Positions 59,529 through 63,154 of a DNA stretch of 64,000 nt are shown here, one piece after another. The notes under the pieces were generated by a model, which saw only the letters and a list, made by a program, of their open reading frames with translations, had not been told where the DNA came from and did not search any database. This DNA comes from Escherichia phage A4. Numbering within the stretch: position 1 is the first letter of the stretch; every line of letters begins with the position of its first letter. Location of the stretch: sequence record ON286972. One strand, 5' to 3'. The translations under genes were made by a program, and so were the position numbers.

Positions 59529-59785
59529 CAATGGTATATTTGTTTCTAGGTTGTATTGTTATATTTGTATTGTTTGCTATCTATTGTTTAGTTGATACTG
59601 ATTATTCAATGCGTGGTAATAAGAATTATCAAGTACGTTTTTCCCCGCATAATAACAAGTACTACATTGTGAATGTTAGCCACACTACTGGTCGTGAAAT
59701 GAAAGTAACTGGTAGATTTGGCTTTACAATTTACTATGATAACCAAATTGATGTTGATTATGTTGTTGAAAAGTTAAATAAATGA
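59525..59785 (+). CDS. small membrane protein
   Basis: N-terminal hydrophobic helix MVYLFLGCIVIFVLFAIYCLV. Confidence 0.5.
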   Translation: MTMVYLFLGCIVIFVLFAIYCLVDTDYSMRGNKNYQVRFSPHNNKYYIVNVSHTTGREMKVTGRFGFTIYYDNQIDVDYVVEKLNK

Positions 59786-59786
59786 G

Positions 59787-59812
59787 AAAAGGAGCCTATG
59801 GCTCCTTTTTTA
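59787..59812. terminator. bidirectional rho-independent terminator at convergent gene junction
   Basis: A-run, stem GGAGCC-tat-GGCTCC, T-run; sits between + strand block and minus-strand genes. Confidence 0.65.
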
Positions 59813-60187
59813 TTATGCTTTTTTACGTAGGATGTATTGTCCATTATGTAATTTAATTTTGTGAATCATGTACATAGTGCAAAACCCTTCAATACCTGCT
59901 TCTTCATCTTTCAATTTAATGAAGAAAGTATTATCTCTTAGGCTTTCTACAAGGCTTTCATCTGAATCTTCGAAATTCATGATATATGAATCTTTATTTC
60001 TATACACCATCTGAACATATTCATAAACCTTACCGCTTTCATCGATTAGATCATAAGTATGTGCTGAACGTTGTTTTAAAATATATAGTTTACCAAGAAT
60101 AGCTGCTCCATTAATTTTAGCACCAGTAATTTCGATACCATTAATAGAAAAAGGAAGTCTTCCGGTTAATGCAATTGGTTTACCCAT
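59813..60187 (-). CDS. hypothetical protein, paralog of the N-terminal domain of the Big_2 protein
   Basis: MGKPIALTGRLPFSINGIEITGAKINGAAILGKLYILKQRS.. aligns with N-termini of 60245..62413 and 62517..63020; start at internal Met. Confidence 0.55.
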   Translation of the reverse strand: MGKPIALTGRLPFSINGIEITGAKINGAAILGKLYILKQRSAHTYDLIDESGKVYEYVQMVYRNKDSYIMNFEDSDESLVESLRDNTFFIKLKDEEAGIEGFCTMYMIHKIKLHNGQYILRKKA

Positions 60188-60244
60188 TATTATACTTCTC
60201 CAAGTAAAGTGCATGATAATTTTCATGCACTATATTATTAAAAA

Positions 60245-62413
60245 TTAAGCACTGATTGTTACAGTTGCAGTATCAGTTTTATTGCCATTCGCAGTAGTCA
60301 CTGTAATGACTACAGTACCTTCTTCTAGAGCAGTTACTAATCCATCATCACTAATAGATACTTTAGTAGGTTCATCTGCACTATAAGTTACTGATTTGTT
60401 AGTTGCGTTAGCTGGAAGAACTTCTGGAACTAGTTGAACTGTTTTAGTACCTGATAGTGAAAGATCAGTGGCTTTAGGTGTTAAACCAACGCTGGATACT
60501 GGTACTGGAATATTAACAGTTACAGCACATTTTGCAGTTTTTGCACCATCAGTAGTTTTTACAGTGATATCAGCAGTACCGTTTGCAACAGCAGTGATTA
60601 AACCACTTGCACTAACAGTTGCGACCCCAGCAGCAGAAGTACTATAAGTTACTGCTTTGTTAGTTGCATTAGCTGGTAGTACAGTTGGTGTTAGTTGTTG
60701 AGTTGCACCAACAGATGTTAAAGTTGCTGTTGTTGGAGAAACAGAAACACTAGCTACAGGAACTGGGATTGACACAGTAATGACACCTTGACCTGTTTTA
60801 CCACTTCCATCAGCGGCAGTTGCGATAATGTTTGCAGTACCGTTAGTTAACGCAGTTACAACACCAGTACTAGCATCAACTTTCGCTACAGCAGGTGCAC
60901 TAGAAGACCATGTTACAGCTTTATTAGTTGCGTTAGCTGGAAGAACTTCAGCAGCCATTGCTTGAGTTGCGTTAACAGCAGTCAATGTTTTAGTTGCTGG
61001 AGTAACATTAATAGTTGTTACTGGAACTGGAATTGCTACAGTTACTGCACAAACTTTACTAAAGCCACCATCAGCAGTAGTAGCCGTGATATTAGCAGTG
61101 CCATTCGCTACCGCAGTGATTAAACCACTTGTACTAACGGTTGCAACACCAGCAGCAGAAGTTGCGTATGTTACTGCTTTGTTACGAGCATTAGCTGGTA
61201 GAACAGTTGCAGTTAATTGCTGTGTTGCACCAACAGAAGTTAATGAAGCGGTTGCAGGTGTTAGGTTAATACCAGTTACTGGAATCGTCACATCAATAAT
61301 TGATTGTGCGGTTTTTTCACCATCAATAGTTGTTACTGTAATAGTGGCAGTACCATTATTAACAGAAGTTACTAAACCGTCATCATCAACTTCTGCTACT
61401 GTAGGTGCAGAAGATTCATAACGAACTTCCTGATTTGATGCAGTTCTTGGTAGTACCGTTGCTGTTAATGGTTCATTTGCACCAATAGTAGTGAATGTAT
61501 ATGTTTCAGGTGTTAACGTAACACCAGTTACTGCTGTTTGAACTTTAATAGAAGAAGTATCAGTAAATGAACCATCTTCAGTTGTTGCAGTAATAGTAAC
61601 ATCACCATTGGATACACCTGTTACCAACCCAGAATCTTTATCAACTGTTGCAACGGATGGAGCAGATGAAGCCCATGTAACTTTCTTGTCTGTTGCTGAG
61701 GCCGGAGTAACTTCAGCTAACAATTGTTGAGTTGCCCCAACGTTTACAGTTGCAGTTTTAGGAGAAACGGTAACACCAGTAACACCAGTACTGACAACGA
61801 TAGAACACACATCTGTGAAATCACCATCGTGAGTTGTTACGGTTACATCAGCATTGCCATTTGCAAGTGCAGTTGCTAGACCTGTTTGAGCATCAACTTC
61901 AACGATTGTAGGAGCAGATGAAGAGTAGGTTACTGCCTTGTCTTTTGCATTAGATGGAACTACTTGGGCTGATAGTTGTTTTGTTGCACCAACTTTAAGA
62001 GATGCATCTTTGGGTGTAATTACAACACCAGTTACGGGGACATCAGCATTAACATAATCGCGTTTTACGATACGACCATTATTTAATTTAATAACACGAC
62101 CCATATAAAGCATAGTATATCCCATGCTAATACCATCATCAACATAGATCATGAATGAATTGTCTTGAACCATATTAATTGCGTCTGCTGGTTCAACAGA
62201 ATTTGGAATGTCGATACCACGAGTATCATACCAACGCATGGAAACTTTGTAATAGATATCACCATTATCATTGATGAGATCATACACGTTACCGGAACGT
62301 TGACGGTTAATATATAAAGTTTCGGTTAACACCTTACCATCGATTTTAGCGACGGAAACTTTAATACCACCAATACCAAAAGGCAATTTACCTTCACTAG
62401 ATATTGCTTTCAT
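60245..62413 (-). CDS. Ig-like (Big_2) repeat protein with unique N-terminal domain, likely virion-associated
   Basis: ~125-aa N-terminal domain followed by ~7 repeats of ~80 aa (..GATQQL.A.VLPANATNKAVTY.SSA..VA.V..SGL.TAVANGTA.IT..); TATAAATA upstream. Confidence 0.75.
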   Translation of the reverse strand: MKAISSEGKLPFGIGGIKVSVAKIDGKVLTETLYINRQRSGNVYDLINDNGDIYYKVSMRWYDTRGIDIPNSVEPADAINMVQDNSFMIYVDDGISMGYTMLYMGRVIKLNNGRIVKRDYVNADVPVTGVVITPKDASLKVGATKQLSAQVVPSNAKDKAVTYSSSAPTIVEVDAQTGLATALANGNADVTVTTHDGDFTDVCSIVVSTGVTGVTVSPKTATVNVGATQQLLAEVTPASATDKKVTWASSAPSVATVDKDSGLVTGVSNGDVTITATTEDGSFTDTSSIKVQTAVTGVTLTPETYTFTTIGANEPLTATVLPRTASNQEVRYESSAPTVAEVDDDGLVTSVNNGTATITVTTIDGEKTAQSIIDVTIPVTGINLTPATASLTSVGATQQLTATVLPANARNKAVTYATSAAGVATVSTSGLITAVANGTANITATTADGGFSKVCAVTVAIPVPVTTINVTPATKTLTAVNATQAMAAEVLPANATNKAVTWSSSAPAVAKVDASTGVVTALTNGTANIIATAADGSGKTGQGVITVSIPVPVASVSVSPTTATLTSVGATQQLTPTVLPANATNKAVTYSTSAAGVATVSASGLITAVANGTADITVKTTDGAKTAKCAVTVNIPVPVSSVGLTPKATDLSLSGTKTVQLVPEVLPANATNKSVTYSADEPTKVSISDDGLVTALEEGTVVITVTTANGNKTDTATVTISA
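60250..62040 (-). repeat. tandem Ig-like domain repeats within the Big_2 gene
   Basis: Recurrent stretches such as cagcagcagaagt and tactgctttgtta in successive units. Confidence 0.6.
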
Positions 62414-62449
62414 ATACTTTCCTTTATAAATTGTATTGTAGTGTTATAT

Positions 62450-62457
62450 TATTTATA
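62450..62457 (-). promoter_or_regulatory. T4 late-promoter-like TATAAATA box
   Basis: Reverse complement of + strand TATTTATA, ~40 nt upstream of the Big_2 start. Confidence 0.35.
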
Positions 62458-62481
62458 TTATACCAAAAGTATTTTAGGATT

Positions 62482-62503
62482 AAAAAAGGAGTCCGAAGAC
62501 TCC
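62482..62503 (-). terminator. rho-independent terminator for the upstream minus-strand gene
   Basis: Stem GGAGTC-cgaa-GACTCC with A6 on + strand (T-run on minus) just 3' of the gene ending at 62517. Confidence 0.55.
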
Positions 62504-62516
62504 TTAAAATATAAAG

Positions 62517-63020
62517 TTATTGGAAACGAGCATACGGTGGAAATCTGGTTTGGTCAGGCCAATCTTTCGGAGAGAAGTAAGCAGTGAATTGCATTTTATC
62601 ATTTGAATAAAGAACAAAATCATCTGGCTTTATTATAACTTTAGACAACGAATTTGGCTCCACGTTCGTTCTTCTGAAAATTATTTCACCATTATGTAAT
62701 TTTATTTTATTACTTTGATATTGAATACCAAAACCATACTTATTATTAATAGCATCAGCTTCTTTTATGCAAAATGTATTATTTGCTAAAGATTTAGCAA
62801 TTTCAGCATCGTCATCATCATACTACAATGTTGATTTATCTTTATTTCTACCTGTGATTTTTATCTTGAAATTTTCAGATATTAAATCATATGAATCGAA
62901 TGTTCTTTGTTTTATAACATACAATTCTTTAACAAATACTTGCCCTTCTATCTTTGCAGCAGTAACCTGCAATCCACCTATAACAAATGGAAATTGATCT
63001 AAGCCAGCTATTGGTTTCAT
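62517..63020 (-). pseudogene. paralog of Big_2 N-terminal domain, interrupted by in-frame amber (TAG) codon
   Basis: Track ORF 62823..63020 stops at TAG (+ strand 62823-62825); same frame continues to TAA at 62517-62519 and stays collinear with paralog 59813..60187 across the stop. Confidence 0.55.
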
Positions 63021-63154
63021 AACATCTCCTTACCTTAAAAATGGGATTGTAAACTGCCTCCCAATATGATACCATAGTTCAAATGGTCAATTGGTAAATC
63101 AATGAACTTAACAAAAACACTTGATACTACAGTCATAATTGTTCAGTTTTGCAC

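What the first reader, a model, noticed from the sequence alone, without database searches (positions are those of the whole stretch)
62517..63020. In-frame amber codon interrupts a conserved domain in a minus-strand paralog
The ORF starting at 63020 (MKPIAGLDQFPFVIGGLQVTAAKIEG..RNKDKSTL) stops at TAG, but the same frame continues for another ~100 codons (YDDDDAEIAKSLANNTFCIKEADAINNKYGFGIQYQSNKIKLHNGEIIF..) to TAA at 62517-62519. The two halves align collinearly, with no gap, to paralog 59813..60187 (..RNKDSYIMNFEDSDESLVESLRDNTFFIK..IKLHNGQYIL), and a terminator follows only the downstream end. This is a nonsense-mutated pseudogene, an amber mutation in a laboratory stock, or a suppressed/read-through gene. 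The same ~120-aa domain forms the N-terminus of the Big_2 repeat protein.
Basis: seen in the sequence. Interest (0 to 1): 0.6.

Follow-up and report, generated by a model that had tools for sequence, protein, structure and literature searches.

The report
Recently inactivated phage surface-protein gene remnant
The in-frame amber codon is real, but it marks a freshly dead gene: a leftover made by an 11-kb deletion in a jumbo coliphage's surface-protein locus, then knocked out by a stop codon and a small deletion, so it is an ordinary pseudogene and not a read-through gene.

Summary
On the minus strand, ATG 63020 is followed by TAG at 62825-62823. The frame then stays open for 101 more codons to TAA 62519-62517, and a terminator hairpin follows. 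Both halves match the same ~120-aa N-terminal domain as the two downstream paralogs.

The window is an Asteriusvirus-like jumbo coliphage, probably Escherichia phage A4.

- **Origin of the ORF.** Close relatives (98%) carry about 11.4 kb of large Ig-like genes (1881, 832, 629 and 567 aa) at this position. In the window these are deleted across an 11-nt repeat, CCTGACCAAAC. This fuses the 5' end of the first gene in frame to the last 13 codons of the last one, so the Ig domain is cut after about 33 residues.
- **Recent lesions.** One relative (L024) has this 171-codon chimera intact. Within the gene it differs from the window only by TTG (Leu) instead of TAG and by 12 nt that encode a family-invariant Tyr.
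- **Further decay.** A metagenomic variant with the TAG has two further changes, both downstream of it, and one is a second TAG. UE-S1 and ph0011 have deleted the gene body.
- **No sign of suppression.** No other gene in the window is split by a TAG, and related phages have no CUA tRNA in their tRNA clusters. The context is UAG-U, and there is no RNA structure at the stop.

Verdict: a nascent pseudogene. Interest is low.

The parts
62826..63020 (-). 5' segment of the disrupted gene: 65 sense codons (MKPIAG...KDKSTL), identical to GenBank USL83542.1 'putative structural protein' of Escherichia phage A4. It encodes the first half of the ~120-aa N-terminal domain.
   Evidence: PHROG 33171 E=1.4e-16
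62823..62825 (-). In-frame amber codon TAG, followed by T. The intact allele L024 has TTG (Leu), so this is a single T>A change at window 62824. L008 has TTA (Leu).
62559..62822 (-). Downstream continuation of the frame. It covers the second half of the N-domain, a linker and the first ~33 residues of an Ig (Big_2-like) domain. It derives from the 5' end of the first giant Ig-like gene seen in relatives (L008).
62864..62865 (-). Site of a 12-nt in-frame deletion. ATTTACAAAGAT, present in L024 and L008, was lost between AAGAT direct repeats. It removes residues IYKD, including the family-invariant Tyr in a core beta-strand.
62548..62558 (-). 11-nt microhomology CCTGACCAAAC at the junction of a ~11.4-kb deletion. 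Upstream of it the sequence matches the first giant gene (L008). From it onward the sequence is identical to the 3' end of the 567-aa last gene of the array (L025, L027 and L028).
62517..62547 (-). Last 10 sense codons plus TAA (CAGATTTCC...CAATAA, i.e. (T)RFPPYARFQ*). They are inherited from the 3' end of the 567-aa array gene, which ends ...QQDEPDQTRFPPYARFQ* in L025.
62486..62505 (-). Intrinsic-terminator-like hairpin plus T-run. It is shared with the end of the array in relatives.
63023..63090 (-). Ribosome-binding site (TAAGGAGATG, 63032-63023) and a sigma-70-like promoter match (TTGACC-16-CATATT, 63090-63063). This upstream region is conserved in UE-S1 and, short of the RBS, in ph0011, where the gene body is deleted.
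60245..62413 (-). Intact paralog of 722 aa: the same N-domain plus 7 Big_2 repeats.
59813..60187 (-). Intact paralog of 124 aa: N-domain only. It corresponds in architecture and position to 121Q gp471.

Best explanation
The ORF at 62517-63020 is a nascent pseudogene, the remnant of a dispensable virion-surface (Ig-like) protein gene.

**Step 1 (shown).** In the ancestor, this position held an array of four large Ig-like genes of about 12 kb. The first of them starts with the ~120-aa N-terminal domain. A deletion of ~11.4 kb across an 11-nt direct repeat (CCTGACCAAAC) fused codon ~161 of the first gene in frame to the last 13 codons of the last gene. The result is a 171-codon chimera consisting of the N-domain, a 33-residue stub of an Ig domain and a foreign C-terminal tail. 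It kept the original promoter, ribosome-binding site, stop codon and terminator.

**Step 2 (shown).** In the lineage of this window (phage A4 type) the chimera acquired two lesions. One is TTG>TAG at codon 66 (codon 70 of the intact 171-codon allele), in the middle of the N-domain. The other is a 12-nt slippage deletion that removes an invariant Tyr.

**Step 3 (shown in relatives).** Decay continues. One variant has a second TAG downstream. UE-S1 and ph0011 have deleted most or all of the body but keep the junction.

**Inferred.** Translation stops at the UAG. It yields at most a 65-residue half-domain with no function, and the downstream frame is open only because the mutation is very recent. 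By homology, intact family members are virion proteins. Their N-domain probably anchors a variable-length Ig array to the particle.
For: **The TAG is real and recurrent.**
- It is seen directly in the sequence and on 5 public contigs.

**An intact allele exists.**
- L024 is identical across the gene except for TTG at the TAG position and the extra 12 nt. The same 171-aa protein is P0008 in two NCBI records.

**The ORF is a deletion chimera.**
- Relatives L012, L013, L025 and L028 carry the full array.
- L025's 567-aa gene ends with DNA identical to the window tail. L008's 5' end shares CCTGACCAAAC and then continues for more than 1221 aa.
- The Ig domain is truncated. Pfam finds no Big_2 in this copy, but does find it in RaK2 gp496 and in the 722-aa paralog.

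**The 12-nt deletion is damaging.**
- The deleted IYKD contains a Tyr invariant in 11- and 26-sequence alignments. In the AlphaFold model it lies in strand 54-60 (pLDDT 84.9).

**The frame was constrained until recently.**
- Against L008 there are 13 synonymous and 3 non-synonymous changes overall, and 9 versus 2 downstream of the TAG.

**Constraint was lost after the stop.**
- L006 is 99.96% identical over 5.6 kb. Its only 2 differences both fall in the 306 nt downstream of the TAG (chance about 0.003). They are Y101>TAG and H109N.

**Relatives show later stages of decay.**
- UE-S1 and ph0011 keep the upstream region and the junction but lack the body.
- 121Q, RaK2, BF and CBB manage with a single gene at this locus.

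**There is no sign of suppression.**
- No other TAG-split gene occurs in 64 kb.
- The window has no tRNA. The Sharanji and UE-S1 tRNA clusters have no CUA anticodon (PMC11895373, PMC12805682).
- No Rfam family matches, and RNA folding at the stop gives z = -0.46.

**The family is virion-associated.**
- CBB_112 was found in virions by mass spectrometry (PMC5259590).
Against: - Apart from the TAG, the 167-codon frame is still perfectly open, and its substitutions against L008 are mostly synonymous. That pattern would also fit a gene that is still translated. It is explained here by recency, since there is only one base substitution relative to the intact allele.
- The complete genome of this phage could not be scanned for a suppressor tRNA, and the propagation host's genotype (for example supE) is unknown.
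- The evidence for relaxed constraint after the stop rests on two mutations in one low-coverage (6x) metagenome contig.
- It is not known whether the intact 171-aa chimera was ever functional.
- Both stops in L006 are amber codons, which a suppression model would also predict. However, the chance expectation for the second being TAG is about 1/2.
Confidence: 0.85

Rival explanations
1. The amber allele is expressed through suppression. The UAG is read as an amino acid by a suppressor tRNA, either phage-encoded elsewhere in the ~355-kb genome or a host supE-type tRNA. A full-length 167-aa protein is therefore still made.
For: The frame downstream stays open for 101 codons. The second stop in variant L006 is also TAG. 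TAG is a rare terminator locally, ending 2 of 33 called genes including this ORF, so a weak suppressor would be tolerable. The whole genome could not be scanned.
Against: - No tRNA is present in the 64-kb window.
- The tRNA clusters of relatives hold Thr, Asn, Met, Ser x2, Arg and Gly, plus one odd tRNA-like gene with a 4-nt tcat anticodon. None has CUA.
- No other gene in the window has an in-frame TAG.
- The stop is a one-step derivative of TTG in a 99%-identical relative.
- The same allele also lacks an invariant Tyr, so even the read-through product would probably be defective.
- From my own knowledge (Poole, Brown and Tate 1995), U as the fourth base is an efficient termination context in E. 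coli.
Confidence: 0.06
2. Programmed stop-codon read-through: a leaky UAG gives a short and a long isoform, as in Q-beta A1.
For: One promoter and ribosome-binding site lie upstream, and one terminator lies after the second stop only. Both halves are homologous to one domain.
Against: - The stop is not conserved. L024 has TTG, L008 has TTA, and all homologs have sense residues at a variable column.
- The stop lies inside a single folded domain, not at a domain boundary.
- There is no stimulatory RNA structure (z = -0.46).
- L006 has a second stop 35 codons further on.
Confidence: 0.02
3. Loss of the chimera is adaptive, not neutral. After the 11-kb deletion, an anchor-only protein would compete with the 722-aa and 124-aa paralogs for binding sites on the virion. 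Knock-outs (amber, 12-nt deletion, body deletions) would then be selected for.
For: At least three independent inactivation routes are seen: amber plus 12-nt deletion in the A4 type, and two different body deletions in UE-S1 and ph0011. N-domain-only and N-domain-plus-Ig paralogs coexist at the locus.
Confidence: 0.07

Closest known systems
Ig-domain virion proteins of RaK2-like jumbo phages (RaK2 gp496, CBB_112, Serratia BF_0105, 121Q gp471; PHROG 33171 / 10468)
   Same: - It has the same ~120-aa N-terminal domain: 44% identity to RaK2 gp496 over residues 4-158, and PHROG 33171 E=1.4e-16.
- It occupies the same position, on the opposite strand next to the dCMP deaminase gene.
- The N-domain sits at the extreme N-terminus, followed by Ig repeats.
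   Different: This copy is broken by a TAG inside the N-domain. It lacks an invariant Tyr and keeps only ~33 residues of its first Ig domain, with no Pfam Big_2 hit. It is a deletion chimera of two genes.
Phage Ig-like surface or decoration proteins such as T4 Hoc (Fraser et al. 2006; own knowledge and PMC7602432)
   Same: The architecture is a virion-attachment module plus an array of Ig-like domains. Such proteins are dispensable accessories, highly variable in copy and repeat number.
   Different: There is no sequence or fold relationship between the N-domain and any solved structure. The attachment site on the virion is unknown. Hoc's capsid-binding domain is C-terminal (own knowledge).
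Classical amber (UAG) nonsense mutants of coliphages (T4 am mutants; own knowledge)
   Same: A single-base change creates UAG inside a phage structural-type gene. A truncated N-terminal fragment is predicted unless a suppressor is present.
   Different: This allele is natural and seen in several assemblies. It lies in a non-essential and already truncated gene, and it comes with further lesions. There is no evidence of a suppressor host.

Membership tests
Pseudogene (recently disabled gene remnant) | Clear homology to functional genes | tested here: met
   Paralogs in the window and RaK2 gp496; PHROG 33171
Pseudogene (recently disabled gene remnant) | Disabling lesion(s) within the coding region | tested here: met
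   TAG at codon 66 inside the N-domain; 12-nt deletion removing an invariant Tyr; Ig domain truncated by the 11.4-kb deletion
Pseudogene (recently disabled gene remnant) | Lesions are derived, being absent from close relatives | tested here: met
   L024 has TTG and the 12 nt, with the gene otherwise identical. L008 has TTA. P0008 is the intact 171-aa protein.
Pseudogene (recently disabled gene remnant) | Relaxed constraint or further decay after the lesion | tested here: met
   L006's only 2 differences in 5.6 kb lie downstream of the TAG, and one is a second stop. UE-S1 and ph0011 have body deletions. The sample is small.
Pseudogene (recently disabled gene remnant) | No full-length product made | not testable with these tools
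   Needs proteomics of virions or infected cells
Programmed stop-codon read-through | Stop codon conserved among orthologs | tested here: not met
   Sense codons in L024 and L008 and in all homologs, at a variable column
Programmed stop-codon read-through | Leaky context or stimulatory RNA structure | tested here: not met
   UAG-U context; fold z = -0.46; no Rfam match
Amber suppression or TAG recoding by a phage tRNA | tRNA with CUA anticodon in the genome | tested here: inconclusive
   None in the window or in the tRNA clusters of Sharanji and UE-S1. The rest of this phage's genome was not available.
Amber suppression or TAG recoding by a phage tRNA | Many genes with in-frame TAG | tested here: not met
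   This is the only TAG-split coding frame in 64 kb. Treating TAG as sense adds little ORF length.
RaK2-like Ig-domain virion protein family | N-terminal ~120-aa domain (PHROG 33171/10468) | tested here: met
RaK2-like Ig-domain virion protein family | Syntenic position next to dCMP deaminase, on the opposite strand | tested here: met
RaK2-like Ig-domain virion protein family | Complete Big_2/Ig domain(s) after the N-domain (some members are N-domain only) | tested here: not met
   No Pfam hit in this copy, only a 33-residue stub
RaK2-like Ig-domain virion protein family | Presence in virions | not testable with these tools
   Shown by mass spectrometry for the ortholog CBB_112 only (PMC5259590)

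The most novel reading that the evidence does not exclude
The repeated knock-outs of this chimera could be selected, not neutral. The routes seen are amber plus 12-nt deletion here, a second amber in a metagenomic variant, and body deletions in UE-S1 and ph0011. An anchor-only N-domain protein left by the 11-kb deletion would compete with the intact Ig-array paralogs for sites on the virion, so losing it would restore particle decoration. Alternatively, the amber allele could be conditionally expressed in suppressor-carrying hosts.
Probability: 0.1. Interest if true: 0.4.

Novelty: new member of a known kind. Interest (0 to 1): 0.17.

Why it matters
As a recoding candidate it does not matter, because it is a pseudogene.

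Its modest value is as a clean, stepwise record of how a hypervariable accessory locus in jumbo phages shrinks. A microhomology-mediated 11-kb deletion makes an in-frame chimera, then point and slippage lesions follow, and finally the body is deleted. All of these stages are present in public data.

For annotation, the 65-aa and 43-aa CDSs in the phage A4 record should be treated as fragments of one pseudogene. The ~120-aa N-terminal domain shared by these proteins has no Pfam model and no solved structure, and could be worth defining.

Tried and rejected
**Searches that found nothing useful**
- Megablast of the locus against the phage collection found only UE-S1 and ph0011 at 80-85%. The source phage itself is not in that copy.
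- The E. coli complete genomes gave no match.
- IMG/VR and JGI metagenome scans for the 171-aa protein returned no relatives.
- The first protein search with the read-through sequence returned a single cluster.
- No paper on phage A4 was found.

**Look-ups that had to be worked around**
The intact allele's DNA was reached instead through the identical dCMP deaminase.
- A look-up through the neighbouring 201-aa protein only returned the same amber-allele contigs.

**Tests of alternative explanations**
- TAG recoding was tested by treating each stop codon as sense and by listing TAG-split frames, and was rejected.
- L008's +1 A frameshift was considered as an independent inactivation. The same sample also has a +1 A in an A7 run of a conserved neighbouring gene, so assembly error cannot be excluded and I did not rely on it.
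- A link between the Ig arrays and the 'hairy' appendages of phAPEC6 (PMC7247149) was considered. It was not pursued, because 121Q-type phages have only the short gene at this locus.

**Attempts to identify the N-domain**
- PDB sequence search gave no hit.
- BFVD returned only members of the same family.

Full report
**1. Observation**

On the minus strand, ATG at 63020 opens 65 sense codons that end in TAG at 62825-62823. The same frame then continues for 101 codons to TAA at 62519-62517. A G+C-rich hairpin followed by a T-run lies at 62505-62486, and there is no such site after the TAG. From base composition, the chance of 101 open codons is about 9e-4.

The downstream 101 residues on their own align with residues 72-122 of the 124-aa paralog (59813-60187; E=6e-12). 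They also align with residues 72-165 of RaK2 gp496 (E=2e-22), which continues the alignment of the upstream half. The same domain forms the N-terminus of the 722-aa, seven-Big_2 protein at 60245-62413.

The copy lacks four residues 13 codons upstream of the TAG. Its last ~45 residues correspond to the start of an Ig domain, not to anything in the 124-aa paralog.

**2. Where the window comes from, and whether the TAG is real**

The locus is 80-85% identical to the Asteriusvirus jumbo coliphages UE-S1 and ph0011. The 65-aa product is identical to USL83542.1, 'putative structural protein [Escherichia phage A4]', from a 355,528-bp genome. That record also annotates a 43-aa ORF from the downstream part.

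The same ORF is on five public contigs:
- L005 (SRR18825480) is 100% identical to the window over 11 kb.
- L007 (SRR18825437) is 100% identical.
- L006 is a 6x-coverage ENA metagenome contig, 99.96% identical.

The TAG is thus neither an assembly artefact nor confined to a single data set.

**3. The ORF is a deletion chimera**

Close relatives carry four large genes with weak Ig-like signatures between the divergent upstream region and the Big_2 gene. These relatives are L025 (GCA_011911785.2, 358,987 bp) and L028, both 98.4% identical, together with L013 and L012. In L025 the four genes encode 1881, 832, 629 and 567 aa.

In L008, which is 96% identical, the gene that starts like the window ORF runs on for more than 1221 further codons. 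L008 has a +1 A frameshift at about codon 110, which may be an assembly error.

The window follows L008 up to 62548 and then diverges. From 62558 onward it is identical to the last 42 nt of L025's 567-aa gene, which ends ...QQDEPDQTRFPPYARFQ*, and to the terminator behind it. Both parents share the 11-nt string CCTGACCAAAC (window 62558-62548).

The ORF therefore results from an in-frame deletion of about 11.4 kb across this repeat. The consequence is that the first Ig domain is cut after about 33 residues. Pfam finds no Big_2 domain in this copy, although it does find one in RaK2 gp496 and in the 722-aa paralog.

**4. The amber codon is a very recent, derived lesion, and not the only one**

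L024 (ERR7425836), 99.0% identical over 15 kb, carries the chimera as an intact 171-codon ORF. The same protein (P0008) is in two NCBI E. coli assemblies.

Across the gene, L024 and the window differ by exactly two events:
- TTG (Leu) in L024 versus TAG in the window, a T>A change at 62824.
- A 12-nt segment, ATTTACAAAGAT, present in L024 and L008 but lost from the window between AAGAT direct repeats (between 62865 and 62864).

The four lost residues (IYKD) include a Tyr that is invariant in alignments of 11 and 26 family members. In the AlphaFold2 model of the intact paralog this Tyr lies in strand 54-60 (mean pLDDT 84.9, pTM 0.79). The TAG falls between that strand and helix 76-81, in the middle of one folded domain.

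**5. Selection before and after the stop**

Against L008, the shared 473 nt show 13 synonymous and 3 non-synonymous substitutions. Downstream of the TAG the counts are 9 and 2. The frame was therefore under purifying selection for most of its history, which explains why it is still open.

After the stop the picture changes. L006 carries the TAG and differs from the window at only two positions in 5,603 nt. Both positions lie in the 306 nt downstream of the TAG, which has a chance of about 0.003. One changes Tyr101 to a second TAG and the other is H109N.

More distant relatives show later stages. UE-S1 keeps the upstream region, the ribosome-binding site and ATG, and the last ~90 nt including the CCAAACCAGATTT junction, but has lost the body. 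ph0011 keeps even less.

The same junction also occurs in phages that are otherwise only ~80-88% identical, while 96-99% relatives still have the array. This means one of two things, and I could not decide between them. Either the deletion allele moved between lineages by recombination, or the deletion recurred at the same repeat.

**6. Tests of suppression and read-through**

- ARAGORN finds no tRNA in the window.
- The tRNA clusters of Sharanji and UE-S1 encode Thr(tgt), Asn(gtt), Met(cat), Ser(act), Arg(tct), Ser(tga) and Gly(tcc). UE-S1 also has one tRNA-like gene with a 4-nt 'tcat' anticodon. None has CUA (PMC11895373, PMC12805682).
- In the whole window this is the only coding frame interrupted by a TAG. 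Treating TAG as sense adds little ORF length compared with TGA or TAA.
- The codon is followed by U. From my own knowledge (Poole, Brown and Tate 1995), that is an efficient termination context in E. coli.
- The RNA around the stop folds no better than shuffled sequence (z = -0.46), and no Rfam family matches.
- The stop is not conserved in any relative.

One limit remains: the rest of this phage's genome could not be scanned for a suppressor tRNA.

**7. What the gene family is**

A gene with this N-domain sits on the opposite strand next to the dCMP deaminase gene in every RaK2-like jumbo phage examined here. Its length varies widely:
- 121Q gp471: 125 aa, N-domain only.
- RaK2 gp496: 212 aa.
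- CBB_112: 218 aa.
- Serratia BF_0105: 301 aa.
- Two tandem genes in Yersinia phage fHe-Yen9-03.
- UE-S1: 633 aa. ph0011: 890 aa.

The domain matches PHROG 33171 and 10468 ('virion structural protein') but has no Pfam family. In a search of 1.84 billion cluster representatives it gives 89 hits. Nearly all have the domain at residues 1-120 of proteins of 102 to 1859 aa.

The ortholog CBB_112 was detected in virions by mass spectrometry, with 4 unique peptides and 24.3% coverage (PMC5259590). RaK2 gp496 was proposed to act in phage-host interaction (PMC3622015).

From this I infer that the N-domain anchors a variable-length Ig array to the particle. This is functionally like Hoc-type decoration proteins, without being related to them.

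**8. Verdict**

The amber codon is genuine, but it marks a nascent pseudogene. The ORF is an in-frame remnant of an 11-kb deletion in a dispensable, hypervariable surface-protein locus. It was recently disabled by a nonsense mutation and by a 12-nt deletion, and it is seen at later stages of decay in other phages. Read-through, recoding and suppression are not supported. It is a new instance of a familiar phenomenon, and interest is low.

Noticed in passing
window 59813-63020; L012, L013, L025, L027, L028 (array genes upstream of the Big_2 gene): The locus between the dCMP deaminase and the ClpP-like gene is hypervariable. Close relatives hold a ~12-kb array of four large genes with weak Ig-like signatures (1881, 832, 629 and 567 aa) that is absent from the window. 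The Big_2 gene itself varies by whole repeats: 633, 638, 714, 722, 808 and 890 aa in different phages.
   Followed up: partly
[not shown]
   Followed up: partly
L017:11816-11890 (Escherichia phage UE-S1, record 64,0xx region): ARAGORN reports a tRNA-like gene with a 4-base 'tcat' anticodon. This is the 'Undet' tRNA of the UE-S1 paper, and Sharanji has no counterpart. It could be a degenerate tRNA or a frameshift-suppressor-like tRNA.
   Followed up: no
L008 and L027 (both from SRR30543657): In this relative several array genes are disrupted. The 832-aa gene has E543>TAA, the 567-aa gene has a 2-nt GT insertion, and the first giant gene has a +1 A. The conserved ClpP-like 201-aa gene also has a +1 A in an A7 run. 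This is either real decay of the array or a partly error-prone assembly.
   Followed up: partly
window 62450-62457 (minus strand): A TATAAATA motif, like the T4 late-promoter consensus, lies ~40 nt upstream of the 722-aa Big_2 gene. It is conserved in UE-S1, ph0011, L012, L013 and L025. The disrupted gene has no such motif, only a sigma-70-like match at 63090-63063.
   Followed up: no
window 59785-59811: A 12-bp-stem hairpin flanked by T-runs on both strands lies between the convergent 86-aa gene (plus strand) and the 124-aa paralog (minus strand). It looks like a bidirectional terminator.
   Followed up: no
window 60187-60226: The 124-aa paralog has an in-frame upstream ATG at 60226, which would give 137 aa. 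Public gene calls and homolog alignments support the start at 60187 (MGKPIA...).
   Followed up: partly
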